A stretch of 64,000 nucleotides of DNA, from contig CAZAYY010000010.1 of the NCBI GenBank assembly GCA_964489525.1, forward strand, positions 68,934-132,933, given 5' to 3'. The DNA comes from an uncultured Anaerolineales bacterium. Its GTDB lineage: Bacteria; Chloroflexota; Anaerolineae; Anaerolineales; JABWBV01. The notes under the pieces were generated by a model. The model ran no database searches, had not been told where the DNA came from, and was given only the letters and a program-made list of their open reading frames with translations. Positions within the stretch are counted from its first letter, which is position 1. Each line of letters starts with the position of its first letter. The translations under genes and the position numbers were made by a program. Of this stretch, positions 44,426 through 63,353 are shown piece after piece.

Positions 44426-44599
44426 ATGAAAATCCTCCAAAAAAGGGGGTGGGCTGGCTGGAGGAGCGATCCATGCCAGCCCACCTGGCAAACTTGCGTG
44501 TTCAACAACCATTTGCAGTTTAATCGCCAGGTGTCAACACCATGTTGCGGGTGTGTAAAAATTCGGTAAATTATTCGCAGCCGCTCCAAATAATAAGTT

Positions 44600-47280: not shown

Positions 47281-47302
47281 TGGGGCTGAAAAAAGGGAAA
47301 AT

Positions 47303-48271
47303 ATGAATACAACCCAAACCCTCAGGTATTGTTCTCACACCAGCCTTTCCGCTGGCGAGGCGCTGACAGGCACCGCCACCCGGGTGGACTACTGGTTTCT
47401 GCTGGAATACCCGTCCGTATTCGGGCGCAAAGCCTATGAAGAAAGCGGCATCCCGGCAGAGGTTAAGCGCCACCTGGACAGCGCCCTGGCGGCCATTCCC
47501 AACAGCCGGCTGCAGTTAATTAAACGTGGAAGCTTACCGGCTGGGGCAGGTATCCGCTTTTTTTGGGTGGTTAACCACGAGGAGCAGCCCAACCTCTACC
47601 AGATGACGCTGGGAGATTATTCCGATTTACTCCAGCTGGATTTAATCGCCCTGGTCAAAGAGCCCCGCGAAAGCTGGCAGTACGACCGCAGCGAGCCGCT
47701 TTTCCTGGTCTGCACCCACGGGAAACGCGATGCCTGCTGTGCGCTGCATGGTCTCGCTCTGTACCAGGCCCTGCAAAAACGCTACGGCGCCAACGATTGG
47801 GTCTGGGAGAGCGACCACGTGGGCGGCCACCGCTTTGCAGCCAACCTGGTTTGCCTGCCGCATGGCATTTCTTATGGGCGGGTTGCGCCCGACCAGGCCC
47901 TGGGGTTGGTGGATGCATATTTGAAAAGAGAGGTTCACCTGGAAAACTATCGCGGCCGCTCGTGCTATGCCCGTCACGCACAGGCTGCCGAAAGCCTGCT
48001 GCGCCAGCAAACGGACAAAATCGGGTTGGACGAATATAAATTGGTGGAAATTCACCCCCAACCAGCCCCTGCAGGGGGGACAGGCACCCATTGGATATTC
48101 CAGTTTGTAGAGCGCAATGGCGGCGCCCGGCACTGCCTGCATGTGGAACAAGCCAAAGGCCAGGCGCAGGTTCTTGAAAGCTGCGGCGATGAGAAAACTG
48201 CCACCATTACCGAGTATCACCTGTTGGAATACGAAAGCCACCCGCCTGTGGGACACCCAGGCGCGGGTTAA
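47303..48271 (+). CDS. sucrase/ferredoxin-like (thioredoxin-like [2Fe-2S]) family protein
   Basis: Start at ATG 47303. VCTHGKRDACCALHG motif. Confidence 0.65.
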   Translation: MNTTQTLRYCSHTSLSAGEALTGTATRVDYWFLLEYPSVFGRKAYEESGIPAEVKRHLDSALAAIPNSRLQLIKRGSLPAGAGIRFFWVVNHEEQPNLYQMTLGDYSDLLQLDLIALVKEPRESWQYDRSEPLFLVCTHGKRDACCALHGLALYQALQKRYGANDWVWESDHVGGHRFAANLVCLPHGISYGRVAPDQALGLVDAYLKREVHLENYRGRSCYARHAQAAESLLRQQTDKIGLDEYKLVEIHPQPAPAGGTGTHWIFQFVERNGGARHCLHVEQAKGQAQVLESCGDEKTATITEYHLLEYESHPPVGHPGAG

Positions 48272-50644: not shown

Positions 50645-50780
50645 AATCCACCTCCTAAAATGGATAAAGTGTGCAAGGCCTGGTAAGCGTTTTTTGAAAA
50701 ATAACCGGATGGGGTATGTTGGTTTCGGCACGCCTGCCAGGCCGTTTCCGGTTATTCTGTTTTTTGGCTGGTGGACAAAC

Positions 50781-51122
50781 TTATGCTTTCAAAATGTCAA
50801 CCAGGTCTTCAATTTTTCCTACGGGGAGGTTCTCGCTGGACACAACCTGGATTGTGTCTTGCTGCGAGTTCAGCCGCAGGATTTTCAAAGCCGGGTTTGA
50901 AAACATCAGTTCGCTCAGCGAACACAACTGCAAGGCTTCTGGGTCATGGGCATCCGTGATTACGGCGCTGGGGGCGCACTGATGGATACGGGCTGCAGCA
51001 TCAGCATCAAACGGATTCACCAGGCAAACCTCAATTTGCTGAGGAAATTGCTGCAAGCGCCGGGCAATTCCTTCGGCAAACAACGAGTGATTGGATAAGA
51101 TGACAACCGTTTTTACTGACAT
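50781..51122 (-). CDS. small protein with degenerate receiver-like (pseudo-receiver) pattern
   Basis: Start at ATG 51122 (MSVKTVVILSNHSLFAEGIARRL...). Alternating beta/alpha pattern like CheY, but the acidic pocket DD is replaced by SN. The assignment is weak. Confidence 0.45.
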   Translation of the reverse strand: MSVKTVVILSNHSLFAEGIARRLQQFPQQIEVCLVNPFDADAAARIHQCAPSAVITDAHDPEALQLCSLSELMFSNPALKILRLNSQQDTIQVVSSENLPVGKIEDLVDILKA

Positions 51123-51357
51123 ACAATACACCAAAACAAAAGCCACACACAGCTTTCAACAGGATTATATTAATAGAATATGAGCCGTTTGGGTATCCTC
51201 CCTTCGCGCCAAAACGGGTGTCATTAAAGATAGGTGAAAAAAAGCACAACTAACCAATAGTATTAATTGTAAATTCATCGAAAGATTGTAAAAACTTAGC
51301 CTTAAGGGTTAAATCAGGGGGGTTTTGGAGGGATTTTGGCCGGTTTTTCAAAACAGG

Positions 51358-51426: not shown

Positions 51427-52941
51427 ATGTACGGGCTTAATCTGACCATTGTCTACTTTTTTTACGGCCTGGCTTTTTTTACCATGGGCGTGATTGTGCT
51501 GCTGGAGCGCGACCGTGGCTCAGACCAACGCCTGCGGCATGCTTTAGGCCCCCTGGCCGTTTTTGGGTTAGTGCATGGCGCCAATGAGTGGTTGGAGATG
51601 TTCATGAACATTGGAACCCTGCCCACGCTCGGTTCGTGGGGGTTAATCTTGAATGGGGTTCGCCTGGGCACACTGGCATTTTCGTTTATATCTTTAACCG
51701 CCTTTGGCGCATCTTTGCTTTCACCCAACGAAACCGTGCGGCGGTACAGCCTGCTGCTGCCTGTGCTGCAAACTGCGATCTGGGGGTTTGGTGTTCTCAT
51801 CTTAAAGGACCACTATACCGCCCCGCAGCGGATTTGGGATGTGGCCGATGTGTGGAGCCGCTACACCCTGGGCGTTCCCTCGGCGGTAATTGCAGCCATA
51901 GGTTTGGTTGCCCAACAGCGCGCCTTCCGCAAAGCAGGCATGGCTCAGTTTGGGCGCGACAGCCTGTATGCCGCCCTGGCTTTTGCCTGGTATGGCTTGG
52001 TGGGGCAAATATTCGTCCACCCCAGTGCGCTGCCCCCTTCAACCCACATCAACCAGGACCTGTTTTTCTTTTATTTTGGCTTTCCTGTGCAAATTTTCCG
52101 GGCGATAACGGCAGCAATTGCCGCAGCATTTGTGGTTCGCTTTTTACGTGCTTTTGAAGTGGAACGGCAGCGCCAATTAAATGAACTGCAAGAGGCCAGG
52201 GTGGAAGAAGCCAGGCGGCGCGAAATTTTGCGCGGCCAGCTACTGCGCAGGGTAGTGATGGCGCAGGAGGCCGAACGGCAGCGAGTGGCGCGGGAACTGC
52301 ACGACGAAACCGGCCAGGCGCTGACCGCAATCGGCCTGGGGCTGCGCGGCGTAACCAACTCCATGTCCTCCAACCCCGAACAGGCCGCTCAAAAAATGCG
52401 CCAGATTGAATTGATGGCCTCTCGCTCGCTGGATGAACTGCGCCACCTGATTGCCGACCTGCGCCCCTCGCACCTGGACGAATTGGGCCTGCGCGCCACC
52501 CTGCGTTGGTATTTTGGCGAGGTGCAGGCTCGCACAAAACTCCAGGTCCACCTGGAAGTTTTAGGAGATGAAGTTAACCTGCTGCCCGAAGTGCGGATCG
52601 CACTCTATCGCATCATCCAGGAATCCATCACCAACACCATCAAACATGCCCAGGCCAGCGAAATTAACGTCAAACTTGCCTATTTGCCCGCTGCTGTTCA
52701 AGCGACCATTGAAGACAACGGCCAGGGGTTCGACATGCGCAAACTGCAGCAGCCAGGCATTTATTCCTGGGGGCTGTTAGGGATGCAGGAGCGTACCTCA
52801 CTGCTTGGCGGCCAGTTTAACCTGGTTTCCTGGCCAGGCGAAGGAACCCGCATCAGTGTTACACTGCCTTACCAACCGCAGGCATTGGTAGAAAACCTGC
52901 TAGGAGATGAAGACCATGAGCACCAGAATTCTGTTGGTTGA
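51427..52941 (+). CDS. sensor histidine kinase (HisKA_3/NarL-partner type) with polytopic membrane sensor domain
   Basis: About 7 TM helices in the first 240 aa. RVARELHDETGQALTAI (H-box) and HATPase_c (EDNGQGF, GLLGMQER). Confidence 0.88.
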   Translation: MYGLNLTIVYFFYGLAFFTMGVIVLLERDRGSDQRLRHALGPLAVFGLVHGANEWLEMFMNIGTLPTLGSWGLILNGVRLGTLAFSFISLTAFGASLLSPNETVRRYSLLLPVLQTAIWGFGVLILKDHYTAPQRIWDVADVWSRYTLGVPSAVIAAIGLVAQQRAFRKAGMAQFGRDSLYAALAFAWYGLVGQIFVHPSALPPSTHINQDLFFFYFGFPVQIFRAITAAIAAAFVVRFLRAFEVERQRQLNELQEARVEEARRREILRGQLLRRVVMAQEAERQRVARELHDETGQALTAIGLGLRGVTNSMSSNPEQAAQKMRQIELMASRSLDELRHLIADLRPSHLDELGLRATLRWYFGEVQARTKLQVHLEVLGDEVNLLPEVRIALYRIIQESITNTIKHAQASEINVKLAYLPAAVQATIEDNGQGFDMRKLQQPGIYSWGLLGMQERTSLLGGQFNLVSWPGEGTRISVTLPYQPQALVENLLGDEDHEHQNSVG

Positions 52942-53566
52942 TGACCACGCCGTAATCCGCATGGGACTGCGCATGCTGCTGGAGGGGGAAGAAGACATTG
53001 AAATTGTGGGTGAAGCCGACTCCGCAAGGGAAGCGCTGCAATTTGTAAGCAAAACCCAACCCGATGTAATTTTGATGGATGTGAATCTGCCCGATAAATC
53101 TGGCATTGATGTCACCAGGGCGATCAAAGCCCAATGGCCGAAAATTGCCATTGTGGCCCTGACCATTCACGAAGACCAGGAATACTTTTTTAAAATGCTC
53201 CAGGCAGGCGCCAGCGGTTATGTCCCCAAACGGGCTGCGCCGGAAGAACTGCTCACGGCCATTCGCGCCGCTGCCCAGGGGGAGGTCTATTTATACCCAT
53301 CTATGGCCAAGCTGCTGGTGCAAGATTACCTCTCCCCAGATCAACAAGAAAGCAACAAAACCGCCCTGGACGGGCTGACCGACCGGGAGCAGGATGTTCT
53401 GGCACGCCTGGCCGATGGCGAGAGCGTGGGCGAAATTGCCGATGCTCTGTCCATCAGCCCGAAAACGGTTGCCCGCCACCGTGAAAACATCATGCGCAAA
53501 TTGAATTTGCACTCTCGAGGCGAATTGGTGCGCTATGCCATCCGCAAAGGGATTGTTGAGGCGTAA
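52916..53566 (+). CDS. NarL/LuxR-family response regulator
   Basis: ATG 52916 is preferred because AGGAG lies 9 nt upstream (the track start is 52907). RILLVDDHAVIR, DVILMDVNLPD, and the LuxR HTH LTDREQDVLARLADGESVGEIADALSISPKTVARH. Confidence 0.92.
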   Translation: MSTRILLVDDHAVIRMGLRMLLEGEEDIEIVGEADSAREALQFVSKTQPDVILMDVNLPDKSGIDVTRAIKAQWPKIAIVALTIHEDQEYFFKMLQAGASGYVPKRAAPEELLTAIRAAAQGEVYLYPSMAKLLVQDYLSPDQQESNKTALDGLTDREQDVLARLADGESVGEIADALSISPKTVARHRENIMRKLNLHSRGELVRYAIRKGIVEA

Positions 53567-53966: not shown

Positions 53967-54083
53967 ATGTCTGAAATCTTAATCCCAATTGTGCTGCTGT
54001 TCTTCTTCATCCTGCGGATTGTCATCCCCGCTGGATTGTTGCTGGCAATTGGTACCTGGCTGCAGAAGCGCTTTGCTTACTAA
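53967..54083 (+). CDS. 38-aa hydrophobic peptide (single TM helix)
   Basis: Below the ORF-track size cut-off. GGAGG 7 nt upstream of the ATG. MSEILIPIVLLFFFILRIVIPAGLLLAIGTWLQKRFAY. First gene of the plus-strand cytochrome operon. Confidence 0.45.
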   Translation: MSEILIPIVLLFFFILRIVIPAGLLLAIGTWLQKRFAY

Positions 54084-54110: not shown

Positions 54111-54467
54111 ATGAACGAGTTGTTTGAAATTATCTCTCTGCTGATGGGATTTATGCTGCGGTTAGGGCTGCCCATTGTGGTGACGGTTCTGGGCATCATG
54201 CTGTTGCAACGGCTGGATTCCCGCTGGCAGCTCGAAGCAGAAAAGAACACCACCCTGGCAAACCTCAAACCGGGCGACTACCTGAACAAAGTTCACTGCT
54301 GGGATATTCGCGAGTGCTCCCCTGAAACCCGCTCGCAGTGTTCTGCCTATCAACAACCCGATGTTCCCTGCTGGGAAAGCCACCGAGTCGGTGGGAAATT
54401 ACAAGAATCTTGCCGCAGCTGCGCAATTCGCAAACGCGTGGTTGCCATTTCAACTGTCAATCTATAA
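54111..54467 (+). CDS. membrane-anchored Cys-rich protein (six Cys, two C-W motifs; two-CW-like domain)
   Basis: AGGAGG RBS. N-terminal TM helix, then VHCWDIRECSPETRSQCSAYQQPDVPCWESHRVGGKLQESCRSC. Confidence 0.65.
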   Translation: MNELFEIISLLMGFMLRLGLPIVVTVLGIMLLQRLDSRWQLEAEKNTTLANLKPGDYLNKVHCWDIRECSPETRSQCSAYQQPDVPCWESHRVGGKLQESCRSCAIRKRVVAISTVNL

Positions 54468-54482
54468 CACAGGAGGCATTCC

Positions 54483-55385
54483 ATGATTGCTCGTTTTATT
54501 CGCATGATTTTCGTTGGGCTTTGTTTTGCCCTGCCCTTTGGCCTGGTGACTGCGGTTGCCCAGGCTCAAACCCTTCAACCCCCCGCAGATGGCGAATGCC
54601 AGGACTGCCATGAAATCACCCAGGTCAAGTGGGCCAACAGCGCACACGGACAGGCCCTCAGCAGCCCCACCTTCCAGGCCACCTGGCAGGAAAAAGGCTC
54701 CCCGGCCGAATGTCTGGCCTGCCACACCACAGGCTTTGACCCGGAAACCGGCACCTACGCTTACGAAGGCGTTTCTTGCTCCACCTGCCACTCCTCCGAC
54801 ACGGGCAACCACCCCGATGAAATTATGCCCACGGATGTATCCTCCAGAATGTGCGGTGAATGCCACCTGGACACTTACGCCGAATGGGAAACCAGCACTC
54901 ACGGGGCAGAAAACCAAACCTGTGCCACCTGCCACGATGTTCACTCCACATCCATCAAAGCAGCCGAAGCACAGGAATTATGCCAATCGTGCCACCTCGA
55001 TGAAGTGCACTACTACCAATACACCTCGCACAGCGAAGAGGGACTGCTCTGCACCGACTGCCATGTCAATGTCTCTGGTTCAATCATGGGCGAAGGACAC
55101 GCACAGCGTAAGCACACCTTTACCGTTGACCTGAACACCTGCAACGAATGCCACAGCCAGGGGCTGCACTACCCAAGCGGGCAGTTGATGGCGGAAGCGG
55201 GCATTGGCCAGGCACCCCAACAATCTGGGCTGGCCATGCCCATTGACGGGCACACCGTGGTTGCAGAAACCACTCCGTCCAGCCCCTTCAGCTTTGCCAT
55301 CCTGGCGGCGCTGGTAGGGATGGCCGTTGGCATGGTGATCTCTCCACTGTTGGAACGCTGGTATCGCCGCAACACATCCCTCTAA
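54483..55385 (+). CDS. octahaem c-type cytochrome with signal peptide and C-terminal TM anchor
   Basis: Eight CxxCH motifs: CQDCH, CLACH, CSTCH, CGECH, CATCH, CQSCH, CTDCH, CNECH. C-terminal FSFAILAALVGMAVGMVISPLL. Confidence 0.9.
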   Translation: MIARFIRMIFVGLCFALPFGLVTAVAQAQTLQPPADGECQDCHEITQVKWANSAHGQALSSPTFQATWQEKGSPAECLACHTTGFDPETGTYAYEGVSCSTCHSSDTGNHPDEIMPTDVSSRMCGECHLDTYAEWETSTHGAENQTCATCHDVHSTSIKAAEAQELCQSCHLDEVHYYQYTSHSEEGLLCTDCHVNVSGSIMGEGHAQRKHTFTVDLNTCNECHSQGLHYPSGQLMAEAGIGQAPQQSGLAMPIDGHTVVAETTPSSPFSFAILAALVGMAVGMVISPLLERWYRRNTSL

Positions 55386-55421: not shown

Positions 55422-56222
55422 ATGGAAGAGACCAAAACCCAAAGCACCAAGCCCCGCTTGCGCATCAACCGGCGTGAATTCGTCAAAATCGCCGCACTGG
55501 GCACAGCCGCCGCTCTGGCACCAGCCCTGGCAAAAAACACCCTTGCTTCGCCTTCTTATGCACACGCCCCACACGGCAGCCCCTACCGCTGGGCTATGGT
55601 CATTGACCAGGGCAAATGCGTGGGATGCAACTACTGCGTGAAAGCCTGCAACGCCAACAACGACACCAACCCCGACATTAAGTGGATCAAGATGTACGAA
55701 ACTCAGGAACTGCGCGGCGGAAAAACCTACCTGCCGGTGGCCTGCCAACACTGCGCCAACCCGCCTTGCGTGGGGGCCTGCCCGGTTCAAGCCACGTACC
55801 AACGAGCCGACGGAATTGTGATGATGGATTACGACCGCTGCATCGGCTGCCGCTACTGTGAAGTAGCCTGCCCATACGGCGCACGCTCGTTCAACTGGGA
55901 AAGCTTCAAAGACGAAAACCCTTACGTACCCGCCTACGGCACACCAAATGTACCTCGCCGAGAACGCGGCGTTATTGAAAAATGCACCTTCTGCTACTCC
56001 AAAATTGACCGGGGCCTCGAACGCGGCCTGGTTCCTGGCGTGGACGCAGCAGCGACCCCGGCCTGTGTGCTGGCTTGCCCGCATGGCGCCCGCTTGTTTG
56101 GCGACTTGAACGACCCCGATTCCCCCGTCAGCAAAGCACTTGCCGAAAACCACTATTTCCGCCTGCAGTCGGATTCTGGCCTTGAACCCAGGGTTTATTT
56201 CTTGCCTGCTCGCAAATCATAG
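55422..56222 (+). CDS. Tat-exported 4x[4Fe-4S] ferredoxin subunit (NrfC/PsrB/DmsB-like)
   Basis: Twin-arginine signal RINRREFVKIAALGTAAALA. Cys clusters CVGCNYCVKAC, CQHCANPPCVGACP, CIGCRYCEVACP, CTFC...CVLACP. Confidence 0.9.
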   Translation: MEETKTQSTKPRLRINRREFVKIAALGTAAALAPALAKNTLASPSYAHAPHGSPYRWAMVIDQGKCVGCNYCVKACNANNDTNPDIKWIKMYETQELRGGKTYLPVACQHCANPPCVGACPVQATYQRADGIVMMDYDRCIGCRYCEVACPYGARSFNWESFKDENPYVPAYGTPNVPRRERGVIEKCTFCYSKIDRGLERGLVPGVDAAATPACVLACPHGARLFGDLNDPDSPVSKALAENHYFRLQSDSGLEPRVYFLPARKS

Positions 56223-56232
56223 GAGATTGAAG

Positions 56233-57492
56233 ATGGTCGCAGCATTACGCAACTTCCAATTTACACGATTTCATGCCTGGGTACTTTTCCTGGGGGCTGT
56301 CATTCTTTCCGGTCTGGTAGCCGCAATTATGGTCTTTGCCCAGGGTTTGTGGATCACCAACCTGAACGACCTGGTGCCCTGGGGCTTATGGATTGGCATT
56401 GACCTTTCTTCCATCGCACTCAGTGCAGGCGCTTTCCTGCTTTCCGCTGTGGTGTACCTGGTTGGCATCAAAAAGTTTGAACCCATCGCTCGCACGGCTG
56501 TGTTTGTGGGCCTGATTGGTTACTCCATGGCGCTGATGACGCTGATTATGGACATTGGCCGCCCCGACCGCTTCTGGCATGCCCTGGCCTTCTGGAACTA
56601 CCACTCACCGCTCTGGGAAGTGTCCATGTGTATCGCCATGTACTTCACCGTGCTGCTGCTGGAAGCCATGCCCATCATCGCTCGCTGGGAGTGGCTGGCA
56701 AAAACCTTCCCCGTGCTGGCCAAAAAGATGACCCACATTCACCACTACGCTCCGGTTCTCGCCATTGCTGGCCTGGCCCTTTCGGTAATGCACCAATCAT
56801 CCCTCGGCGCAATGTACGGGATTATGAAAGCCCGCCCAATTTGGTACCGCCCCAGCATGGCAGGCATGTTCATCCTCTCGGCGATGATTGCCGGGCCCGC
56901 CCTGACCCTGCTGATTTCCATGATCTCCGCCCGCCTGACCGACCGGGCCAAAGTGAACGATAAACTGGTGGAACAAGTTAGCTACTATATCGGTTGGGGA
57001 CTGGTCGCCATGCTTTATGTCCGCTTTTGGGACACCCTGGCCATGCACTACACCTACCAACCCGGGCGCACCGAAGGTCTGGAAATGCTGACCAAAGGTC
57101 AGCTGGCCTTCAACTTCTGGGGGCTGGAAATTTTCCTCGGCATCTTGCTGCCACTGGTGGTGCTGCTTACGGGCAAACTGCGCCGGATTCCGGTGGTGCG
57201 AATGATTGCCCTGGCCTCTGTGGTAATTGGGCTGATCGCCTTCCGCTGGGATACCAACATGGTCGGGCAGTTGGTGGTTTTTACCAATCTTTCGCAAACC
57301 TATGTGACCGGTTTTACCAGCTACACCCCGAATTTGATTGAAATTTTAGTTGGTGGCGCAGTGGTTGGCTATGGCATGCTCGCCATTTCACTCGGCATTC
57401 GCTACCTGCGGCTGGTGGACCACACCGACGTTCACGGCGAACATGAAGAAGCCCATGTTGAGCAGATGGTGCTCAGCCCTGCTGCCGATTGA
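56233..57492 (+). CDS. NrfD/PsrC-family polytopic membrane quinol-interacting subunit
   Basis: Start at ATG 56233 (AGGAG upstream), 11 nt after the Fe-S gene stop. About 10 TM helices. Gene order follows the NrfC-like gene. Confidence 0.85.
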   Translation: MVAALRNFQFTRFHAWVLFLGAVILSGLVAAIMVFAQGLWITNLNDLVPWGLWIGIDLSSIALSAGAFLLSAVVYLVGIKKFEPIARTAVFVGLIGYSMALMTLIMDIGRPDRFWHALAFWNYHSPLWEVSMCIAMYFTVLLLEAMPIIARWEWLAKTFPVLAKKMTHIHHYAPVLAIAGLALSVMHQSSLGAMYGIMKARPIWYRPSMAGMFILSAMIAGPALTLLISMISARLTDRAKVNDKLVEQVSYYIGWGLVAMLYVRFWDTLAMHYTYQPGRTEGLEMLTKGQLAFNFWGLEIFLGILLPLVVLLTGKLRRIPVVRMIALASVVIGLIAFRWDTNMVGQLVVFTNLSQTYVTGFTSYTPNLIEILVGGAVVGYGMLAISLGIRYLRLVDHTDVHGEHEEAHVEQMVLSPAAD

Positions 57493-57833: not shown

Positions 57834-59561
57834 TTATTTTTCTGGCGCGCCTGCTTGAATCCAGGCCTGCAATGCTTCCAACTCATCGCCTAACATTTTG
57901 CCAAAATGGGGGGTAGATTGGGTTTGGCGAGTGAAAACCGGGCTGGCAGCAGGGTCACCCGGAACCAGGCCAGGCCCACTGCTTCCGCCTGCCAATGCGC
58001 CCGTATAAGTACTCAGGTCCAGGCTGCCTTCCGGATCTATCCCGCTATGACAGAAGATGCAGCGTCCATCAAAAACCGCCTTAAAAGTATCATCATAGGT
58101 TTGAGGGGCGCCAGGAATCAGGAAGGGGCTGGTGTTGAGCAAAATGTAGAGCTGTTGGTCCAAAATGGCAGTAAGCTCAGGCGCATTCAGGCCAATATAT
58201 TCCCAATCAGCGCCATGGCAGGCTTCATTACCACAGAAAGAGGTATCAATGGGTGGTTTGCCTTCCAACTTGGTGTAGAGAATTTTCGGGTCGCTGGGTG
58301 TGTGGCAGGCGGCACACGAGGAGTCAATCGCCTTACCATGCAGAGCGATCCAACTGCTGTGCGTATGGGATGCGGGCTGCTGTCCGGTGACAATTTCAAT
58401 ATTGCTGGTGAGTGCGCCGGGTTTGGAAATCACAGGTATGGCATGGCAAAGGTTGCACTCTAACCGGATGGCTTCCTGGGTAGAGGTGAGGTGTTTGCCA
58501 TCATGGCAGCGGAAGCAGCCAGGATCATCTTTGTGCCCCAGGTTGTTCGGGTGGGTGTCCCAATCAATAAGCTGGTCAGGAAAAACAATTTGGTTGTAGA
58601 TATCCTTCAAGGTAAAGACTGCCTGGTCAATTTCAGCCTGGCGGCTGGCATAAACTTCTGGGTAGTTCGCCTGGTAGTAAGCCGGCAGAGAATCAATCGC
58701 ATCGATGGCATCTGCGGCTTGTTCGTAAGATTTGTCAATGGCTTCTACGGCCAGTTGGTAAATGAAGGGCAAATCGGTGGAAATGAGCTGCTTTTTGATT
58801 GCCTCTGAAACCGCCTCTTCAGGTGTTGGCATGGAATGGGTTACTCGATTGTGGCAGGTAATGCAGTCCATCCGCTGCAGCGTGGCCCCGGCAACGTCGT
58901 TTGGTGTCAGCCCAGAAGCCAGGTCATAATATTCTTTGATGGTGCCATCCGGGTTGACAACGCGCACATAAGGAATCTCTTGCTCGCGGTCATCGGTAGC
59001 AAGGTAATAAACCTCACTTTCGATATGCCAGTGAATCCCAAGGCCCAGGCCTTCGCGCTGGCTTCCACCGCCTGTTTTCAGCACCAGGAAAGTGCTTTGG
59101 GGGGTGTTGGCTTCGTTATTCTGGTAGCTTCGCAGTTCCCGCAGGCTGTCATCGGAAAATTTTTCAGGGAAGTGACAGGTTTCGCAAGTCTCACGGGCCG
59201 GGCGCATGTTTTTGGCGTGGATTGGGTATTCGTAATCCTGTGTCACCATCACAACGACATGGCGCAGGTCGCCTGCTTTACGTGAAATACGGGTAGCGAT
59301 GAAGTCGCGTCCAATGTGACATTCAACACATTGAACCCGGGCATGCGGAGAACGCAGGTAAGCACTATACTCTGGCGGCATGGTATGGCAGGAAGTTCCA
59401 CAAAATTCGGTGGAATTGGTGTAATCCCAAACATAGGCACCCGCAGTCAGCATGGTCAGCGTGAGCACACCCAAAACTGCAAAGGGCATCAGGCGCAGGG
59501 CGACCGGTGTGCCCGGTGGGGGCAGAAAGAACCGTTTAATTGCAGTCCAAATAACCTTCAT
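57834..59561 (-). CDS. membrane-anchored multihaem cytochrome: NapC/NirT-like N-terminus plus further haem domains and a C-terminal PSCyt-like monohaem domain
   Basis: ATG 59561 with AGGAGG 5 nt upstream. N-terminal TM helix. Seven CxxCH motifs plus CGTSCH (CX3CH) and CGNEACH (CX4CH). C-terminal CIFCHSG...LDLSTY...GGSSGPGLVPGDP...WIQAGAPE. Confidence 0.88.
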   Translation of the reverse strand: MKVIWTAIKRFFLPPPGTPVALRLMPFAVLGVLTLTMLTAGAYVWDYTNSTEFCGTSCHTMPPEYSAYLRSPHARVQCVECHIGRDFIATRISRKAGDLRHVVVMVTQDYEYPIHAKNMRPARETCETCHFPEKFSDDSLRELRSYQNNEANTPQSTFLVLKTGGGSQREGLGLGIHWHIESEVYYLATDDREQEIPYVRVVNPDGTIKEYYDLASGLTPNDVAGATLQRMDCITCHNRVTHSMPTPEEAVSEAIKKQLISTDLPFIYQLAVEAIDKSYEQAADAIDAIDSLPAYYQANYPEVYASRQAEIDQAVFTLKDIYNQIVFPDQLIDWDTHPNNLGHKDDPGCFRCHDGKHLTSTQEAIRLECNLCHAIPVISKPGALTSNIEIVTGQQPASHTHSSWIALHGKAIDSSCAACHTPSDPKILYTKLEGKPPIDTSFCGNEACHGADWEYIGLNAPELTAILDQQLYILLNTSPFLIPGAPQTYDDTFKAVFDGRCIFCHSGIDPEGSLDLSTYTGALAGGSSGPGLVPGDPAASPVFTRQTQSTPHFGKMLGDELEALQAWIQAGAPEK

Positions 59562-59687
59562 CACAACCTCCTTGTAAGAACACAGTTTGTGAAAAAAATC
59601 GCAACCTGTCCCAGGAACGCTGAGAGCCTGCCTGCGGCAGACTCTCAGCCCTCCCCGATTAAATTTTCAACAGCCTTTGAACGACTG

Positions 59688-60851
59688 CTATTCTTCCGGT
59701 GCGCCGTTGGCAATCCAGATTCGGATGGCTGCGGCCTCGCCAGGGGTCAGGCGCCCGGCATGCGAATCCATACGGGTTGGCCAAATGACCACAAGGCTGA
59801 CACCCGGCCCGCCGGGCACAATCGCCGGACCCGAATCGCCACCTTTAAAGGCGCCTGCCAGGGTTTCCAGGTCGAGGTTGGCCTCACCATTACGAGGGTT
59901 ATGGCAGTCGGCACAGCGGTTAGTAAACACGGCGCCAATGCCGTTTGCCCAGGTATCCCCATACAACCGGGCACTCTCGGGCACAGGCGCACTGGGCGGG
60001 CGCGGGGTTGGGGTCAGGGGAACAAATACTTCAACCTTTTCCAGTTCTGGCACGGCCGCTACGGCGGTTTGTTCGCTGGCCACGAACCAGACAATCCCAA
60101 CAATCCACACCAGAGCAACCAGACCATACCCAATCGCAAAGCGAGTTTTGCGCTGTTGAACGCGGGTGGGGTCATCTTTGAGCGGGGGCGGGGCGTGCAG
60201 CGCCAATGGGTGTTCGTGTTCCATTTCCTTGCGGGAAAGATACCCCGTATACATGCTTTTGTTAAACATCTTCACGAACACGCCGTAAAAATGCCAAAGC
60301 ACAATGGAAAGTGCAGCCAGGACGGCCTCACCACCGTGGGCAGCCTTGGCTGCCGGGATAAGCTCGCCGGGGAAAAGTTCTGCCGCGGTGATGGGATTCC
60401 ACATGAAAAAGCCGGTAACCACCATCACAATGGTGCCCCAAATCAAAGCCCAGTATTCCATCTTCTCTTCAAAGGTATAGAATCCTTGCTTAGGCGGGGT
60501 TTTGGCAAAGCCAAAGTTATATTTCAACGTTTCCCAACCATTTTTTACATCATCCAAACCCGGCAACATCGTCAACGGGCCGCGCTTTACATACCAGTGG
60601 TAAATGGCATAACCGATATGCCACAAGGTAACGACGAAAAGCACAACCGCCGAAATTCGGTGGATAATGCGGGTAATTTCGATCCCTCCCAGGAGGTTGA
60701 TAATAAACACCGATATCCCAGCATCCAGGTATTTTTGCGGCAAACCTGTGATAACGAGGATAATGAACGAAATCCCGTTGGTCCAATGCTCAATCCGGCG
60801 AATGAGCGGGAAGCGCAAATAGCGTTCTGGAATTTTTTCGCTCGTGCTCAT
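59688..60851 (-). CDS. b-type cytochrome (Ni_hydr_CYTB/FdnI-like 4-TM) fused to a C-terminal PSCyt-like c-type haem domain
   Basis: ATG 60851 with GGAGGA upstream; the previous stop is at 60853. RRIEHWTNGISFIILVITG, HRISAVVLF, a further TM helix, then CADCHNPRNGEANLDLETL..GGDSGPAIVPG...WIANGAPEE. Confidence 0.8.
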   Translation of the reverse strand: MSTSEKIPERYLRFPLIRRIEHWTNGISFIILVITGLPQKYLDAGISVFIINLLGGIEITRIIHRISAVVLFVVTLWHIGYAIYHWYVKRGPLTMLPGLDDVKNGWETLKYNFGFAKTPPKQGFYTFEEKMEYWALIWGTIVMVVTGFFMWNPITAAELFPGELIPAAKAAHGGEAVLAALSIVLWHFYGVFVKMFNKSMYTGYLSRKEMEHEHPLALHAPPPLKDDPTRVQQRKTRFAIGYGLVALVWIVGIVWFVASEQTAVAAVPELEKVEVFVPLTPTPRPPSAPVPESARLYGDTWANGIGAVFTNRCADCHNPRNGEANLDLETLAGAFKGGDSGPAIVPGGPGVSLVVIWPTRMDSHAGRLTPGEAAAIRIWIANGAPEE

Positions 60852-60852
60852 G

Positions 60853-62040
60853 CTACTTTTCCTCCGAATGCGCATCTGTATGACTGTGTTGATATCCACC
60901 GCGAATATAGCGCCGGTAGAAATCTGAAACAACAAAGATGCTCATGAAGCCCAGCACGCCAGGAATGAACAGCTTGTAGAACAGGTCCACCAGATAAACA
61001 ATGGTATGGTTTTCCAAATCAGGTTCGTAGTGACTGAGCCAGGAATCGGAAAAATTTGGGGTGGCATCGGGGTGGCAGTTCTGGCACGTGGAGAGGATAT
61101 TTTGCTTGATTAGCTCGACAGATGCTGCGTCGCCCGGGTCAACAATATTATGGACACCATGGCAGTCAATACATACCGGTTTGTTGGTTTCCTGGTCAGG
61201 GGTGGTCTTTTCAAAAATGGTGACGGTCGTCCCGTGAAAATCGGCAATGTAGGTATCGAACACGTTGGTGTTGATATCGTAACGTGCCATCATCTCTTCG
61301 TCCGTGTGGCACTCCGCACAAATGGTGGGCGAGTGGAGTTTGAAGCCCTCCTGAACAATGGGACCGACATTCCCGTGATTATCGTGGCAGTCGGCGCAGG
61401 TTGGTACATCGGGATTAAAGTCTTCCACCAGTGCGGTACCGTGGACACTATCTTTGTACAGGTCATAGATGCTGCTGTGGCACTTCTGGCAGGCAAGGGC
61501 GATTTTGGCGCGAGAGCCGCCAAATTCCTCAATGCTGTGGGAACCGTGACAATCAGAGCAAACGGCAGCGTTCTGGTCTCCTTCAGCCAGCAGAATAGCG
61601 TGGTCGCCAGCTTTGTAAATATCATAAACCGGCTGGTGGCAGGTGCCGCAGGTTTGGTTCATTCGAATGGTTGCCTCGCGGGCGGTTTGCGGGGTGAAAT
61701 CATCGTGGGGGTAGCCAGTGATGTCGGTATGGCACTGCACACACGCATACTTCAGGCGTCCGTGAATGGAAGTTTTATAGAGAACGGAATCAACGGTCAG
61801 ATTCAAAACCTCACCGCTGGGCAGCGGCATGTACATCTCCGGCTGCTCGTGGCATTCCAGGCATTGATCGTTGCTCATGGGCACCACACCAATGGGCGGA
61901 GGGGGGGTGGAAGATGGGCTATCCGCCGCCAGTGTTGGGGCGGCTGAAAGCGCCAGCAGAACAATCGCTGTGAGCAGCGCAGCAACCAGCCAGGCCCAAC
62001 TGGGTGGGGAAAGCTTTCCATGGGTTTGCTTAGGCGTCAT
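60853..62040 (-). CDS. nonahaem c-type cytochrome with signal peptide and C-terminal TM anchor
   Basis: Nine CxxCH motifs: CLECH, CVQCH, CGTCH, CSDCH, CQKCH, CADCH, CAECH, CIDCH, CQNCH. ATG 62040 is preferred (AAGGAG 7 nt upstream). The alternative ATG 62073 overlaps the upstream stop (TAATG). Confidence 0.85.
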   Translation of the reverse strand: MTPKQTHGKLSPPSWAWLVAALLTAIVLLALSAAPTLAADSPSSTPPPPIGVVPMSNDQCLECHEQPEMYMPLPSGEVLNLTVDSVLYKTSIHGRLKYACVQCHTDITGYPHDDFTPQTAREATIRMNQTCGTCHQPVYDIYKAGDHAILLAEGDQNAAVCSDCHGSHSIEEFGGSRAKIALACQKCHSSIYDLYKDSVHGTALVEDFNPDVPTCADCHDNHGNVGPIVQEGFKLHSPTICAECHTDEEMMARYDINTNVFDTYIADFHGTTVTIFEKTTPDQETNKPVCIDCHGVHNIVDPGDAASVELIKQNILSTCQNCHPDATPNFSDSWLSHYEPDLENHTIVYLVDLFYKLFIPGVLGFMSIFVVSDFYRRYIRGGYQHSHTDAHSEEK

Positions 62041-62072
62041 AACACGCTCCTTAGGTTCGTAGTGGGGTTCCA

Positions 62073-63353
62073 TTACGAATCGGGGGTTGCAGTTGGTTCA
62101 GGTGCCGGAGTGGGCTCGGGGGTGGGTTGTGGCGGGGTGTGGTAGCCACGAGCAGCGGTTGCCAACATGTCCATATCCTTTTCAGTCGCCAATGGACCAT
62201 GGCAGTGTTTGCAGGCATAGTCCAGGGTGATGTAGGGCATTGCATATTCCCCATCGGCGCTGAACTGAGCAGCATTCGGGTTGGGGTTAATCGAAAAGAC
62301 ATGCGAACTCAGGTCACCGGTAAAGCGATCGAGGTTACCAACAGCCGAAAGACCGGTGGGCGGCATATGGCAATCGGTGCAGAACAGGGCAAAGTGTTTA
62401 CGAACAGCGGAATATGCGGCCTGTTCCCAGTGGCAGGTATCACAGGTTTGTGTGATGCCAGCGTTGGGGTTAAGCGTAACATCCGTGTAAACGCTGCTGG
62501 AGTGAGGATCGTGGCAGCCAATACAACCAATCGCAAAGTGTTCATTGTTGTGAAGCTGGTCATACTGCACATACTGTTCCGAAAAACCATCGGCAGCATC
62601 GATGCGAGAGTCGCCGCGTGAGTGGCATTCTCCACACGCCTGGGAACTGCGGTCAACTTCCATGGCAACGCCATAAGGGTCAGCCACATGCAGGCTGCCC
62701 GGTCCATGACAGGCTTCGCACTGCACACCTTCAAAGGCCCAGGTACCAATCAGGCCGGGTTTGTCATCCTGGAAGCCCCTGGTGCTGTAGCCAGTGGTAT
62801 GGCATTGCCCACAGCTGAAGGCCAGGTTTTCCGGATTACCATGGTAGGGTGCCCAACTGGGATTCAGTTTTAGGGTTGAATTGGCAAGGTTGTATTGGCT
62901 GAGGTAATCGGCAACGCCAGTCTGCCCGGGCGGGTTGGCAATCAGATAGCCATCCTGGTTGACAAACTGGGCTTTCCAGGCAAAACCACCAATCACATAG
63001 GCGATATCATCCCACGAATACCCTTCGGGGGGATTGGGTACGCCGCCAGTCTGCCCGTCATATGGGAAAACCGGGGCAGCGCCTTCGATTTTGGTGAGGT
63101 TATAGGGGTGACCGGAAAGCTGGTATTTGGTGTAAGCATCCTCATGACACTCAGCACACTTACCCACCCCGACATATTCCCTGCTCACGACAGCGTCATC
63201 GCCCGGAGGGCCGGCAGGCCCTTGTGGCCCGGCGGGGCCTGCTGGACCGATAGGCCCAGGTTCAGGGGCCGATTGCGTTCCGGCACAACCGACCAGCAAT
63301 AAGGCCAGCACACCAAGAAGGGCGATCATCATTAATGTTTGTTTAAATTTCAT
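62073..63353 (-). CDS. octahaem c-type cytochrome lipoprotein with short collagen-like G-X-Y tract and Pro/Thr-rich C-terminus
   Basis: AAGGAGAA RBS. Lipobox LLLVGC. GPIGPAGPAGPQGPAGPPG. Eight CxxCH motifs: CAECH, CGQCH, CEACH, CGECH, CIGCH, CDTCH, CTDCH, CKHCH. Confidence 0.88.
   Translation of the reverse strand: MKFKQTLMMIALLGVLALLLVGCAGTQSAPEPGPIGPAGPAGPQGPAGPPGDDAVVSREYVGVGKCAECHEDAYTKYQLSGHPYNLTKIEGAAPVFPYDGQTGGVPNPPEGYSWDDIAYVIGGFAWKAQFVNQDGYLIANPPGQTGVADYLSQYNLANSTLKLNPSWAPYHGNPENLAFSCGQCHTTGYSTRGFQDDKPGLIGTWAFEGVQCEACHGPGSLHVADPYGVAMEVDRSSQACGECHSRGDSRIDAADGFSEQYVQYDQLHNNEHFAIGCIGCHDPHSSSVYTDVTLNPNAGITQTCDTCHWEQAAYSAVRKHFALFCTDCHMPPTGLSAVGNLDRFTGDLSSHVFSINPNPNAAQFSADGEYAMPYITLDYACKHCHGPLATEKDMDMLATAARGYHTPPQPTPEPTPAPEPTATPDS

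What the first reader, a model, noticed from the sequence alone, without database searches (positions are those of the whole stretch)
57834..63353. Minus-strand four-gene cytochrome operon with a repeated C-terminal PSCyt-like monohaem module fused to two different membrane anchors
The four genes are tightly packed (TAATG overlap at 62073, a 1-nt gap at 60851/60853, a 123-nt gap at 59561/59688). Two of the products end with the same roughly 80-aa module. Compare FDGRCIFCHSGIDPEGSLDLSTYTGALAGGSSGPGLVPGDP...LEALQAWIQAGAPEK with FTNRCADCHNPRNGEANLDLETLAGAFKGGDSGPAIVPGGP...AAAIRIWIANGAPEE. One copy is appended to a NapC/NirT-like multihaem protein and the other to a dihaem-b-type 4-TM cytochrome. 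A cytochrome b fused to this planctomycete-type c domain, sitting next to a NapC-type protein carrying the same domain, suggests two alternative quinol entry points. Both could feed one common partner that recognises the shared module.
Basis: partly seen in the sequence, partly recalled or inferred. Interest (0 to 1): 0.6.

Follow-up and report, generated by a model that had tools for sequence, protein, structure and literature searches.

The report
Chloroflexi quinol-cytochrome cluster sharing one haem module
Two different membrane cytochromes that probably draw electrons from the quinone pool end in the same small one-haem domain; this is part of a larger cytochrome gene cluster found in hundreds of Anaerolineae (Chloroflexota) species, which probably passes respiratory electrons to the cell surface and has not been studied experimentally.

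Summary
Four tightly packed minus-strand genes encode an 8-haem lipoprotein (A), a 9-haem cytochrome with a C-terminal anchor (B), an FdnI-type dihaem cytochrome b with a C-terminal PSCyt1-like domain (C), and a NapC/NrfH-type cytochrome with the same domain (D). The two modules are 42% identical (E 1e-23) and both pass Pfam PSCyt1.

Neither fusion is rare. D relatives occur in at least 588 species genomes, nearly all Anaerolineae, and C has thousands of relatives. The operon is half of a conserved cluster (48.4–63.4 kb). The other half holds an NrfBCD-like quinol module, a 10-haem lipoprotein, a two-component regulator and two small membrane proteins.

A is homologous to OcwA and OmhA, surface iron reductases of Gram-positive metal reducers. 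B+C resemble Geobacter CbcBA. The module is related to FoxE, but an invariant His replaces the Met ligand. Nearly all cyt b-borne and NapC-borne copies have this His; none of 11 copies on bc-complex subunit IV fusions do.

The most likely function is parallel menaquinol oxidases feeding a surface cytochrome network. The "common partner" idea is plausible but untested. I rate it a new variant of a known kind, of moderate interest.

The parts
62073..63353 (-). A: 426-aa 8-haem lipoprotein (signal ...LLVGC) with a short collagen-like Gly-X-Y run (residues 33-51). Candidate cell-surface or cell-wall cytochrome homologous to OcwA and OmhA.
   Evidence: 8 CXXCH. PDB phmmer gives 6i5b (OcwA) E 7.3e-18 and 6qvm (OmhA) E 5.7e-9; the identities of those entries come from PMC9250108. 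A-like genes sit upstream of D or B-C-D in L001, L005-L011, L013, L024, L026 and L085.
60853..62073 (-). B: 406-aa 9-haem c-type cytochrome with an N-terminal signal/TM and a C-terminal TM anchor (residues 358-376). Presumed partner of the cytochrome b, analogous to CbcA.
   Evidence: 9 CXXCH and the TM prediction. B-like genes lie directly upstream of the cyt b in most loci that have one. Pfam Cytochrome_C7, Paired_CXXCH_1 and Cytochrom_c3_2.
59688..60851 (-). C: 387-aa FdnI/HydC-type dihaem cytochrome b (4 TM), a fifth TM helix, a Pro-rich linker and a PSCyt1-like monohaem c domain.
   Evidence: Pfam PF01292 59.9 bits and PF07635 41.4 bits. The family profile hits FdnI 1kqf_C at E 2.3e-15 with H22, H64, H172 and H187 aligned to the four FdnI haem ligands. 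AF2 model pLDDT 87.7. Foldseek FdnI TM-score 0.78.
60207..60818 (-). C, cytochrome b domain (residues about 12-215).
59691..59996 (-). C, linker end plus PSCyt1/FoxE-like module (residues 286-387). CXXCH at C313-H317; invariant His364.
57834..59564 (-). D: 575/576-aa NapC/NirT/NrfH-type membrane cytochrome with one N-terminal TM helix and nine haem motifs (CX3CH, 7 CXXCH, CX4CH), the last of them in the PSCyt1-like module.
   Evidence: Pfam PF03264 53.5 bits and PF07635 38.1 bits. NrfH 2j7a_C E 3e-6 with the single protein and 7.7e-6 with the profile. Invariant motif residues.
59124..59501 (-). D, NrfH-like quinol-interacting region (residues about 21-146), including FCGTSCHTM (CX3CH-x-Met).
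   Evidence: The NrfH CXXCHXM feature is described in bioRxiv 10.1101/2023.05.03.539133.
57837..58130 (-). D, PSCyt1/FoxE-like module (residues 478-575). CXXCH at C501-H505; invariant His552.
   Evidence: AF2 pLDDT is about 80-93 in this stretch.
54483..55385 (+). E: 300-aa 8-haem cytochrome with a signal and a C-terminal TM anchor; NrfB-like partner of F and G.
   Evidence: Syntenic in 37 of 87 loci.
55422..56222 (+). F: 266-aa TAT-exported four-cluster ferredoxin (NrfC/DsrO/QrcC type).
   Evidence: Pfam Fer4_11 and TAT_signal. NCBIfam DsrO 237 bits.
56233..57492 (+). G: about 419-aa NrfD-family quinone-interacting membrane subunit (probable ATG at 56233; the mechanical ORF starts at 56140).
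   Evidence: Pfam NrfD 116 bits. Below cut-off similarity to QrcD and HmcC.
54111..54467 (+). 118-aa membrane protein with a Cys-rich C-terminal domain (CW...C...C...CW...C..C), conserved directly upstream of E.
   Evidence: No Pfam or NCBIfam hit. Homologues lie upstream of E-F-G in L003, L006, L024, L035, L039, L057, L059 and L061.
53967..54083 (+). 38-aa single-TM micro-ORF sharing the R-x-G-x-P helix motif with the 118-aa protein; conserved in relatives.
   Evidence: Called 38-40 aa genes at the same place in L003, L005 and L006.
51427..53566 (+). Two-component system: HisKA_3 histidine kinase (51427-52941) and a LuxR/GerE-type response regulator (52907-53566).
   Evidence: Pfam. Syntenic in L003 and in 24-32 of 87 loci.
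48410..50731 (-). M773: 10-haem lipoprotein built from two tandem 5-haem units of about 345 aa, each with a DYDGDGD motif. The probable start is the Met of MFIFLALAGFALLVAGC, near 50623.
   Evidence: M773-like genes occur in 35 of the 80 D loci.

Best explanation
This window comes from a Chloroflexota bacterium of the class Anaerolineae; the closest relatives are Ardenticatenaceae. Positions 48.4-63.4 kb hold a conserved respiratory cytochrome island, and the reported operon is half of it.

Shown:
- D is a single-helix NapC/NrfH-type cytochrome with nine haem sites.
- C is an FdnI-type dihaem cytochrome b with a fifth helix that places a c-type haem domain outside the membrane.
- B is a 9-haem cytochrome with a C-terminal anchor, encoded directly upstream of C.
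- A is a lipoprotein homologous to the surface iron reductases OcwA and OmhA.
- Next door lie an NrfB/C/D-type module (E-F-G), a 10-haem lipoprotein and a two-component regulator.
- C and D end in the same FoxE/PSCyt1-type monohaem domain, of a subclass in which an invariant His sits where FoxE and canonical PSCyt1 have the Met ligand.

Inferred:
- D, B+C and E-F-G are parallel menaquinol:cytochrome oxidoreductases, analogous to ImcH/CymA, CbcBA/CbcL and NrfBCD/NetBCD.
- They pass electrons from the quinone pool to membrane-anchored and wall or surface multihaem cytochromes (A, M773), and onward to an extracellular or high-molecular-weight acceptor.
- The cell is probably monoderm, so it cannot retain soluble periplasmic carriers. 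The terminal monohaem domain, on a roughly 35-residue Pro-rich tether in C, would act as the built-in exit haem that hands electrons to the next cytochrome.
- The shared, probably bis-His and therefore low-potential, chemistry of the C and D modules suggests both feed the same low-potential multihaem network. This differs from the Met-type or other modules on the bc complex of related genomes.
For: - Domain calls.
- NrfH-like haem 1 motif with Met: with the NrfH feature taken.
- FdnI: four aligned haem histidines and matching fold.
- Topology: the fifth TM helix and flexible linker in a confident model, pLDDT 87.7.
- A is homologous to OcwA and OmhA, which are cell-surface terminal reductases of monoderm metal reducers.
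- Whole-cluster synteny: L003/L004 carry HK-RR-38aa-117aa-E-F-G-B-C-D on one strand, L007 carries M773-like plus A-B-C-D next to ccm genes, and the 80-locus survey agrees.
- Distribution: at least 588 species, nearly all Anaerolineae.
- The module is related to FoxE, at E 2.8e-7 and 3e-8.
- The His signature is specific to cyt b and NapC carriers: 44/45 and 74/75 against 0/11 on subunit IV fusions.
- All five multihaem genes of the 64-kb window lie in this cluster.
- Literature: Anaerolineales are rich in multihaem cytochromes and suspected of extracellular electron transfer. A cultured relative, Ardenticatena maritima, is presumed monoderm, reduces Fe(III) and exchanges electrons with electrodes. 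The CbcBA paper notes cbcB-cbcA relatives in Chloroflexi.
Against: - Nothing here is experimental.
- No terminal reductase, S-layer or wall-anchoring domain was identified.
- OcwA-family proteins also reduce nitrite and similar substrates in vitro, so A could be a soluble-substrate reductase.
- In related genomes the same cluster includes a Rieske/cyt b6 complex with a hexa-cytochrome c fusion. That fits general respiration as well as extracellular transfer.
- Anaerolineales in an electrode experiment were mostly planktonic.
- Assigning the invariant His as the axial ligand is an inference. FoxE swaps its Met ligands between domains, so the ligand geometry could differ.
- 16 of 46 neighbouring cyt b genes lack the module, so it is not essential to the cyt b/multihaem unit.
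- The direction of electron flow is not determined.
Confidence: 0.55

Rival explanations
1. General respiratory chain. The module is simply the Chloroflexi equivalent of a membrane-tethered cytochrome c, as in Bacillus QcrC/CtaC or actinobacterial QcrC. It carries electrons from several quinol oxidases to terminal oxidases or denitrification enzymes, not to the cell surface.
For: In at least 11 related loci a Rieske/cyt b6 complex lies in the same cluster, and its subunit IV is fused to six class-I cytochrome c domains plus a PSCyt1 module. The module superfamily is very large and promiscuous.
Against: No oxidase, Nir, Nor or Nos gene lies in the window cluster or in the syntenic loci inspected. 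The C and D modules carry His where high-potential relatives carry Met, and the bc-complex module lacks that His. The neighbours are multihaem, bis-His-type cytochromes, including an OcwA homologue.
Confidence: 0.2
2. Each module serves only its own operon neighbour: D to A and C to B, or as an internal relay between haem bP and B. On this view there is no common partner, and the similarity reflects common descent of a convenient haem domain.
For: C-type and D-type modules are separate, ancient clades with no nearest-neighbour mixing and 36% mean identity between them. A-D pairs occur without C (L005, L006, L008-L011, L016, L027, L085), and A-B-C occurs without D (L001). 16 of 46 cyt b neighbours lack the module altogether.
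Against: The same His-type signature is kept in both clades across all loci examined. The C module hangs on a long, low-confidence Pro-rich tether, which suits reaching a separate partner better than a fixed internal relay.
Confidence: 0.3
3. Inward electron flow. The cluster takes electrons from extracellular Fe(II), a cathode or a partner cell, through surface cytochromes and the FoxE-like modules, into the quinone pool or a respiratory chain.
For: The only solved relative of the module is FoxE, the Fe(II) oxidase of a photoferrotroph. Ardenticatena maritima shows cathodic as well as anodic current. FdnI-type cytochromes b work physiologically as quinone reductases.
Against: The invariant His in place of the FoxE Met suggests a lower potential, poorly suited to oxidising Fe(II) (inference). 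NrfH/NapC-type proteins are typically quinol oxidases. No CO2-fixation genes or oxidase genes are linked.
Confidence: 0.1
4. The repeated module is a chance resemblance, or a recent local duplication with no functional meaning.
For: None beyond the short length of the module.
Against: BLASTP E 1e-23. Both copies pass the Pfam gathering score. Each copy has hundreds to thousands of orthologues that keep the same fusion, and the two types form separate conserved clades.
Confidence: 0.01

Closest known systems
Geobacter sulfurreducens CbcBA (and the fused form CbcL)
   Same: A dihaem b-type quinone oxidoreductase-like membrane protein is paired with a multihaem c-type cytochrome held by a C-terminal TM helix. 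It is encoded in a regulated operon and used to pass menaquinol electrons outward. B+C have this layout: a 9-haem cytochrome with a C-terminal anchor, then a cyt b.
   Different: C keeps all four FdnI-type haem histidines itself, whereas CbcB has three and borrows one from CbcA. C adds a fifth helix and a monohaem c domain. B has nine haems, not seven. The host is a presumed monoderm Chloroflexota. Direct sequence comparison with CbcA, CbcB or CbcL could not be run.
NapC/NirT/NrfH family quinol dehydrogenases (NrfH, CymA, ImcH)
   Same: One N-terminal TM helix is followed at once by the first haem, whose motif is followed by x-Met as in NrfH. Pfam PF03264 is above threshold and the sequence hits the NrfH structure 2j7a_C. 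Like CymA and ImcH, there is no dedicated catalytic partner gene next to it.
   Different: The first motif is CX3CH, not CXXCH. There are nine haems in 575 residues with long haem-poor stretches, against four in NrfH and seven in ImcH. It has one TM helix (ImcH has three) and a FoxE/PSCyt1-like terminal domain. It scores well below the NCBIfam NrfH, NapC and TorC equivalog cut-offs.
FoxE (PDB 5MAB), the dihaem Fe(II) oxidase of Rhodobacter ferrooxidans, and Pfam PSCyt1 (PF07635)
   Same: Both FoxE haem domains align with the module: CxxCH ... GLxLxxY ... GG..GP..VPG.P..S ... WIxxGAP. Both window modules pass the PSCyt1 gathering score.
   Different: FoxE and canonical PSCyt1 use a Met (R-M-P) as the distal ligand, and in FoxE the ligands are swapped between domains. 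The C and D modules have an invariant His one residue away from that position and match only positions 1-42/46 of the 59-position Pfam model. Here the domain is a single C-terminal appendage of a membrane protein.
OcwA (Thermincola potens) and OmhA (Carboxydothermus ferrireducens) surface cytochromes of monoderm metal reducers
   Same: A matches OcwA over residues 53-262 (E 7.3e-18) and OmhA (E 5.7e-9). These are terminal extracellular reductases of Gram-positive bacteria.
   Different: A has eight haem motifs (OcwA nine, OmhA eleven), a lipoprotein signal and a collagen-like Gly-X-Y run. Only about half of A is covered by the match. Whether the penta-coordinate haems of OcwA are conserved was not tested.
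NrfBCD / NetBCD / Qrc-type NrfD complexes
   Same: E-F-G is a multihaem cytochrome plus a TAT-exported four-cluster ferredoxin plus an NrfD-family membrane subunit.
   Different: G scores below the equivalog cut-offs for QrcD, HmcC, DsrP and NrfD. F passes the DsrO cut-off, but no DsrMKJ genes are present. E has a C-terminal TM anchor.

Membership tests
Pfam PSCyt1 (PF07635) | Score above the gathering threshold (22 bits) | tested here: met
   D 38.1 bits and C 41.4 bits. All 89 top representatives found with the module profile also hit PSCyt1.
Pfam PSCyt1 (PF07635) | CXXCH haem-attachment motif at the start of the domain | tested here: met
   CADCH in C and CIFCH in D. The motif is invariant in 240 homologues.
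Pfam PSCyt1 (PF07635) | Full-length match including the C-terminal Met-Pro (distal ligand) segment | tested here: not met
   The matches cover only model positions 1-46 and 1-42 of 59. An invariant His replaces the Met. These are therefore a divergent His-type subclass.
NapC/NirT/NrfH quinol dehydrogenases (PF03264) | Pfam score above gathering (24.1 bits), with an N-terminal TM helix directly preceding haem 1 | tested here: met
   53.5 bits over residues 30-110, with the TM helix at 21-39.
NapC/NirT/NrfH quinol dehydrogenases (PF03264) | Haem 1 motif CXXCH-x-Met (NrfH type) | tested here: inconclusive
   The motif is CGTSCHTM, that is CX3CH-x-M, with a one-residue insertion relative to NrfH CTSCHIM. 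C54, C58, H59 and M61 are invariant in 43 homologues.
NrfH proper (NCBIfam TIGR03153 equivalog) | Score at or above 134.2 bits and an adjacent nrfA | tested here: not met
   64.7 bits. There is no NrfA-like CXXCK protein in the cluster.
FdnI/HydC-type dihaem cytochrome b (PF01292) | Pfam score above gathering (30.1 bits) and four TM helices | tested here: met
   59.9 bits. The four helices plus one extra are seen in the AF2 model.
FdnI/HydC-type dihaem cytochrome b (PF01292) | Four haem-ligand histidines (FdnI H18, H57, H155, H169) | tested here: met
   Invariant H22, H64, H172 and H187 align to them. A fifth invariant TM His (H78) is also present.
FdnI/HydC-type dihaem cytochrome b (PF01292) | Structural match to FdnI | tested here: met
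   Foldseek 1kqf_C: E 1.2e-6, TM-score (target) 0.78, rmsd 3.0 A over 210 columns.
Formate dehydrogenase gamma subunit (TIGR01583 equivalog) | Score at or above 115.85 bits and adjacent FdnG/FdnH genes | tested here: not met
   58.2 bits. The neighbours are multihaem cytochromes, not molybdopterin or FeS subunits.
Geobacter CbcBA | A dihaem cyt b gene adjacent to a gene for a multihaem cytochrome with a C-terminal TM anchor | tested here: met
   B (9 CXXCH, TM 358-376) lies 1 nt upstream of C. The pairing is conserved in the loci.
Geobacter CbcBA | Sequence homology to CbcA/CbcB, with the fourth b-haem His supplied by CbcA | not testable with these tools
C supplies all four histidines itself, which differs from the description.
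Geobacter ImcH | Three TM helices, seven CXXCH motifs and His/Gln ligation of haem 1 | tested here: not met
   D has one TM helix, nine motifs and a CH-x-M first motif. Sequence homology was not tested.
OcwA/OmhA surface cytochromes | Significant sequence similarity to the solved proteins | tested here: met
   A against 6i5b E 7.3e-18 and against 6qvm E 5.7e-9.
OcwA/OmhA surface cytochromes | Two penta-coordinate haems with conserved distal histidines; cell-surface location | not tested
   The match covers only residues 53-262 of A. No residue-level check or localisation was possible.

The most novel reading that the evidence does not exclude
The His-type PSCyt1/FoxE-like domain could be a standard, flexibly tethered "plug". 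Through it, several unrelated quinol oxidoreductases of monoderm Anaerolineae (NapC-type and FdnI-type) would dock onto one shared wall-spanning multihaem conduit (A and/or the 10-haem lipoprotein). That would give a modular, potential-tuned way to route quinol electrons out of the cell, distinct from the soluble periplasmic shuttles of Geobacter and Shewanella, and present in hundreds of environmentally abundant species.
Probability: 0.25. Interest if true: 0.7.

Novelty: new variant of a known kind. Interest (0 to 1): 0.5.

Why it matters
Anaerolineae are among the most abundant bacteria in sediments, aquifers, digesters and activated sludge. They are known to be rich in multihaem cytochromes, but how they connect the quinone pool to those cytochromes has not been described in the literature I could search.

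This cluster names concrete candidates, conserved in at least 588 species:
- three parallel quinol modules;
- an OcwA-like cytochrome;
- a dedicated regulator.

It also gives a simple sequence marker, the His-type PSCyt1 module on NapC-type and FdnI-type anchors. That marker could be used to annotate thousands of "hypothetical", "NapC/NirT family" and "formate dehydrogenase gamma subunit" proteins more accurately.

It links Pfam PSCyt1 to the structurally solved FoxE. If the tethered-module idea holds, it would show how a cell without an enclosed periplasm replaces soluble cytochrome shuttles.

Tried and rejected
1. Exact look-up of the window's own C protein and of the identical P0001 found no contig, and the cluster look-up gave no name or accession. 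The source organism is therefore inferred only from best hits (Ardenticatenaceae, 60-66%).

2. The promoter and terminator scans were at shuffle level and say nothing about operon structure.

3. The AF2 model of D was poor (pLDDT 60, pTM 0.36), so I did not run a fold search on it. Its central haem-poor region (residues about 150-345) remains uninterpreted.

4. Foldseek of the whole C model recovered FoxE only weakly (E 0.5). The FoxE link rests on the profile-sequence hits.

5. afdb50 was not available.

6. I suspected that the 74-kDa seven-CXXCH haem protein ARMA_0580 of Ardenticatena maritima was a D-family member. It is 430 aa with a Desulfosporosinus best hit, so it is not D.

7. Searches for PSCyt1, Chloroflexi/Anaerolineae multihaem quinol modules and the Desulfuromonadia cytochrome survey gave no description of these fusions.

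8. No Pfam or NCBIfam family was found for the 118-aa Cys-rich protein.

9. A precise equivalence of the NrfH Lys82/Asp89 residues with D's invariant K95/D98 could not be established from the loose alignment, so I do not claim it.

Full report
**Observation**

The four minus-strand ORFs exist as described.
- A (62073-63353) has 8 CXXCH motifs and a lipoprotein-type signal.
- B (60853-62073) has 9 CXXCH motifs, an N-terminal signal and a C-terminal TM helix.
- C is best started at the ATG at 60851, which follows a GGAGGA site, and runs to 59688 (387 aa).
- D runs from 59564 or 59561 to 57834.

A's stop and B's start overlap as TAATG. B's stop and C's start are separated by one base. The C-D gap is 123 or 126 nt, depending on D's start.

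The two C-terminal modules align without gaps over 88 residues at 42% identity, E 1e-23. Both pass the Pfam PSCyt1 gathering score.

**Anatomy of D**

D has a single N-terminal TM helix followed at once by FCGTSCHTM. The family profile aligns this to NrfH's FC-TSCHIM. NrfH's first, quinol-proximal haem is defined by CXXCH-x-Met (bioRxiv 10.1101/2023.05.03.539133). D has the same arrangement with a one-residue insertion (CX3CH), and C54, C58, H59 and M61 are invariant in 43 homologues.

Besides the seven CXXCH motifs there is an invariant CX4CH (C443-H449). That makes nine haem sites. Ten further invariant histidines are available as distal ligands.

D scores far below the NCBIfam equivalog cut-offs for NrfH, NapC and TorC, and no NrfA-like gene is present. 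It belongs to the NapC/NirT/NrfH superfamily but to none of those enzymes. Its AF2 model is poor apart from the TM helix, a helical region and the terminal module.

**Anatomy of C**

The family profile hits E. coli FdnI at E 2.3e-15. Invariant H22, H64, H172 and H187 are aligned to FdnI's four haem ligands. The AF2 model is confident (pLDDT 87.7) and superposes on FdnI with TM-score 0.78.

After the four FdnI helices come a fifth long helix (about residues 228-265), a Pro-rich low-confidence linker (about 266-290) and the module (pLDDT above 90). FdnI ends in the cytoplasm, which is established knowledge of that structure. The fifth helix is exactly what is needed to put a c-type haem domain on the outer face, so the fusion is topologically coherent.

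C is not a formate dehydrogenase subunit. It scores below the equivalog cut-off and its neighbours are cytochromes.

**The module**

Profiles of both families hit FoxE (PDB 5MAB) at E 2.8e-7 and 3e-8, and both FoxE haem domains align. FoxE is thus two PSCyt1-like domains. Its haems are His/Met with swapped Met ligands (PMC10654088).

In the C and D families the Pfam match stops at position 42-46 of 59, before the canonical Met-Pro. An invariant His (H364 in C, H552 in D) lies within one residue of FoxE's Met position. I infer bis-His ligation and a lower potential. This is an inference only.

C-type and D-type modules form separate clades. Mean identity is 36% between the types, against 46% within C and 62% within D, and no nearest neighbour crosses type. 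The two fusions are therefore old, not a recent local copy.

**How common the fusions are**

- C has more than 3,490 relatives at E ≤ 1e-5. The top 120 nearly all carry PF01292 plus PF07635, and some carry two further cytochrome c domains.
- D has more than 5,900 relatives. The top 120 are all full-length at 59-66% identity with exactly seven CXXCH motifs.
Almost all are labelled Chloroflexota of the class Anaerolineae (Ardenticatenaceae, Anaerolineales, Caldilineales, Aggregatilineaceae, Promineifilaceae), and Ardenticatenaceae are the closest.
- A profile of the module finds 33,340 representatives at E ≤ 1e-3 and 7,974 at E ≤ 1e-10. The top scorers carry 2-8 tandem copies.
- Of 89 top representatives, all hit PSCyt1. 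Eleven have an FdnI-type cyt b (one with five modules). Others have DUF2231, Tll0287-like, CTI or PSCyt2 domains.
- About half of 421 module copies are His-type and the rest Met-Pro type.

So the architectures are common, and the module is a promiscuous building block.

**Context**

The operon is half of a conserved cluster. The convergent plus-strand genes are:
- E, an 8-haem cytochrome with a C-terminal anchor;
- F, a TAT-exported four-cluster ferredoxin of the DsrO/NrfC type;
- G, an NrfD-family subunit.

Upstream lie a 38-aa micro-ORF, a 118-aa Cys-rich membrane protein, a HisKA_3 kinase with a GerE-type regulator, and a 773-aa lipoprotein made of two 5-haem units.

L003 and L004 carry HK-RR-38aa-117aa-E-F-G-B-C-D on one strand, next to a 777-aa multihaem cytochrome. 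L007 carries an M773-like gene and A-B-C-D beside ccm genes. L005 and L006 carry A-D next to E-F-G.

In the 80 D-centred species loci:
- a cyt b of this type lies within 10 kb in 46;
- it carries the module in 30;
- both carriers have the module in 23;
- C lies directly upstream of D in 16;
- an NrfD gene is present in 27;
- an M773-like gene is present in 35.

All five multihaem genes of the 64-kb window lie in this cluster.

**A third carrier, and a discriminating signature**

In at least 11 related loci the cluster also contains a Rieske protein, a cytochrome b6 and a protein of 700-800 aa. That protein consists of subunit IV (PetD), six class-I cytochrome c domains and a terminal PSCyt1 module.

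Across all loci the His is present in 44/45 cyt b-borne copies (the exception is register-shifted) and 74/75 NapC-borne copies (the exception is a fragment). It is present in 0/11 subunit IV-borne copies.

The C and D modules therefore share a specific subclass that the bc complex does not use. This is the strongest evidence that they share a function.

**Partners**

A matches OcwA (6I5B, E 7.3e-18) and OmhA (6QVM, E 5.7e-9). These are the cell-surface terminal iron reductases of the monoderm bacteria Thermincola potens and Carboxydothermus ferrireducens (PMC9250108).

B followed by a cyt b reproduces the layout of Geobacter CbcBA: a dihaem b plus a multihaem c with a C-terminal anchor (bioRxiv 10.1101/2021.04.15.440034). 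That paper mentions Chloroflexi cbcB-cbcA relatives in passing.

**Mechanism**

I consider it most likely (0.55) that D, B+C and E-F-G are parallel menaquinol:cytochrome oxidoreductases. They would feed anchored multihaem cytochromes (A, M773) that carry electrons across the envelope of a presumed monoderm cell. The terminal His-type monohaem domain would act as a built-in exit haem in place of soluble periplasmic shuttles.

What is shown: the domain identities, the ligand conservation, the topology, the synteny, the distribution and the OcwA and FoxE homologies.

What is inferred: quinol oxidation, the direction of flow, bis-His ligation, surface location and an extracellular acceptor.

Supporting literature:
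- Anaerolineales are rich in multihaem cytochromes and suspected of extracellular electron transfer.
- Ardenticatena maritima is presumed monoderm, reduces Fe(III) and exchanges electrons with electrodes.

Rivals:
- A general respiratory role for a tethered cytochrome c (0.2).
- Inward electron uptake (0.1).
- Chance resemblance (excluded).

**Novelty**

I found no description of these fusions, of the His-type subclass or of the cluster as a unit in the searchable literature. Public annotations are generic: "NapC/NirT family cytochrome c", "cytochrome b/b6 domain-containing protein" and "formate dehydrogenase gamma subunit".

The components all belong to known kinds, and the logic matches the Geobacter, Shewanella and Thermincola paradigms. 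I therefore rate it a new variant of a known kind, with interest 0.5. It is widespread and unstudied, and it gives testable candidates for how a major environmental class wires its quinone pool to its cytochromes. It is not a surprise in principle.

Noticed in passing
window 53967-54083 (+) and 54111-54467 (+): A 38-aa single-TM micro-ORF and a 118-aa membrane protein share an N-terminal R-x-G-x-P helix. The larger one has a Cys-rich tail (CWDIREC...C...CWES...C..C) with no Pfam or NCBIfam family. Both are conserved directly upstream of the E-F-G genes in many relatives (L003, L005, L006, L024, L035, L039, L057, L059, L061). They could be a sensor, an assembly factor or an anti-sigma-like element for the cytochrome cluster.
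   Followed up: partly
window 63201-63257 (-), residues 33-51 of A: A carries a short collagen-like Gly-X-Y run (GPIGPAGPAGPQGPAGPPG) right after its lipobox. Pfam Collagen hits appear at the same place in A-like proteins of L005 and L014. This could be a trimerising or spacer stalk lifting the cytochrome off the membrane.
   Followed up: partly
window 48410-50731 (-): The 773-aa lipoprotein is an internal duplication of a unit of about 345 aa with five haems. Each copy has a DYDGDGDVAEGI (calcium-binding-like) motif and a long helical region. It has only a marginal match to any solved protein (OcwA 6i5b, E 1e-4, about 70 residues), yet M773-like genes accompany D in 35 of 80 loci.
   Followed up: partly
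L014 12024-15369, L057 7068-10360 and 9 further loci: Related Anaerolineales encode, in the same cluster, a Rieske/cyt b6 complex whose subunit IV is fused to six class-I cytochrome c domains plus a non-His PSCyt1 module. This is an unusually long built-in cytochrome c chain for a bc complex.
   Followed up: partly
P0241 (830 aa) and other top representatives: Some FdnI-type cytochromes b carry up to five tandem PSCyt1 modules, and other proteins carry up to eight. This suggests modular haem "wires" built from this monohaem unit.
   Followed up: no
PDB 5MAB (FoxE) against Pfam PF07635: FoxE, usually treated as a family of its own, aligns as two tandem PSCyt1-like domains. This links the little-studied Planctomycete cytochrome C domain to a solved structure.
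   Followed up: partly
window 50781-51146 (-): A 121-aa ORF lies directly upstream of the 10-haem lipoprotein gene and has no Pfam hit. It resembles a degenerate receiver-like alpha/beta domain by eye only. I did not check whether it is a real gene.
   Followed up: no
window 41084-44512 (-), 46285-48271 (+): The neighbours outside the cluster are a 1,142-aa protein with repeated CarboxypepD_reg domains, a MoxR-type AAA ATPase and a Suc_Fer-like (thioredoxin-like ferredoxin) protein. No link to the cytochrome cluster was examined.
   Followed up: no
window 60853-62073 (-), B: B's best solved relative is chain 28pb_A ("Cytochrome c", 278 aa, E 9e-6). I could not identify this recent entry. It may be an informative structural relative of the CbcA-like partner.
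   Followed up: no
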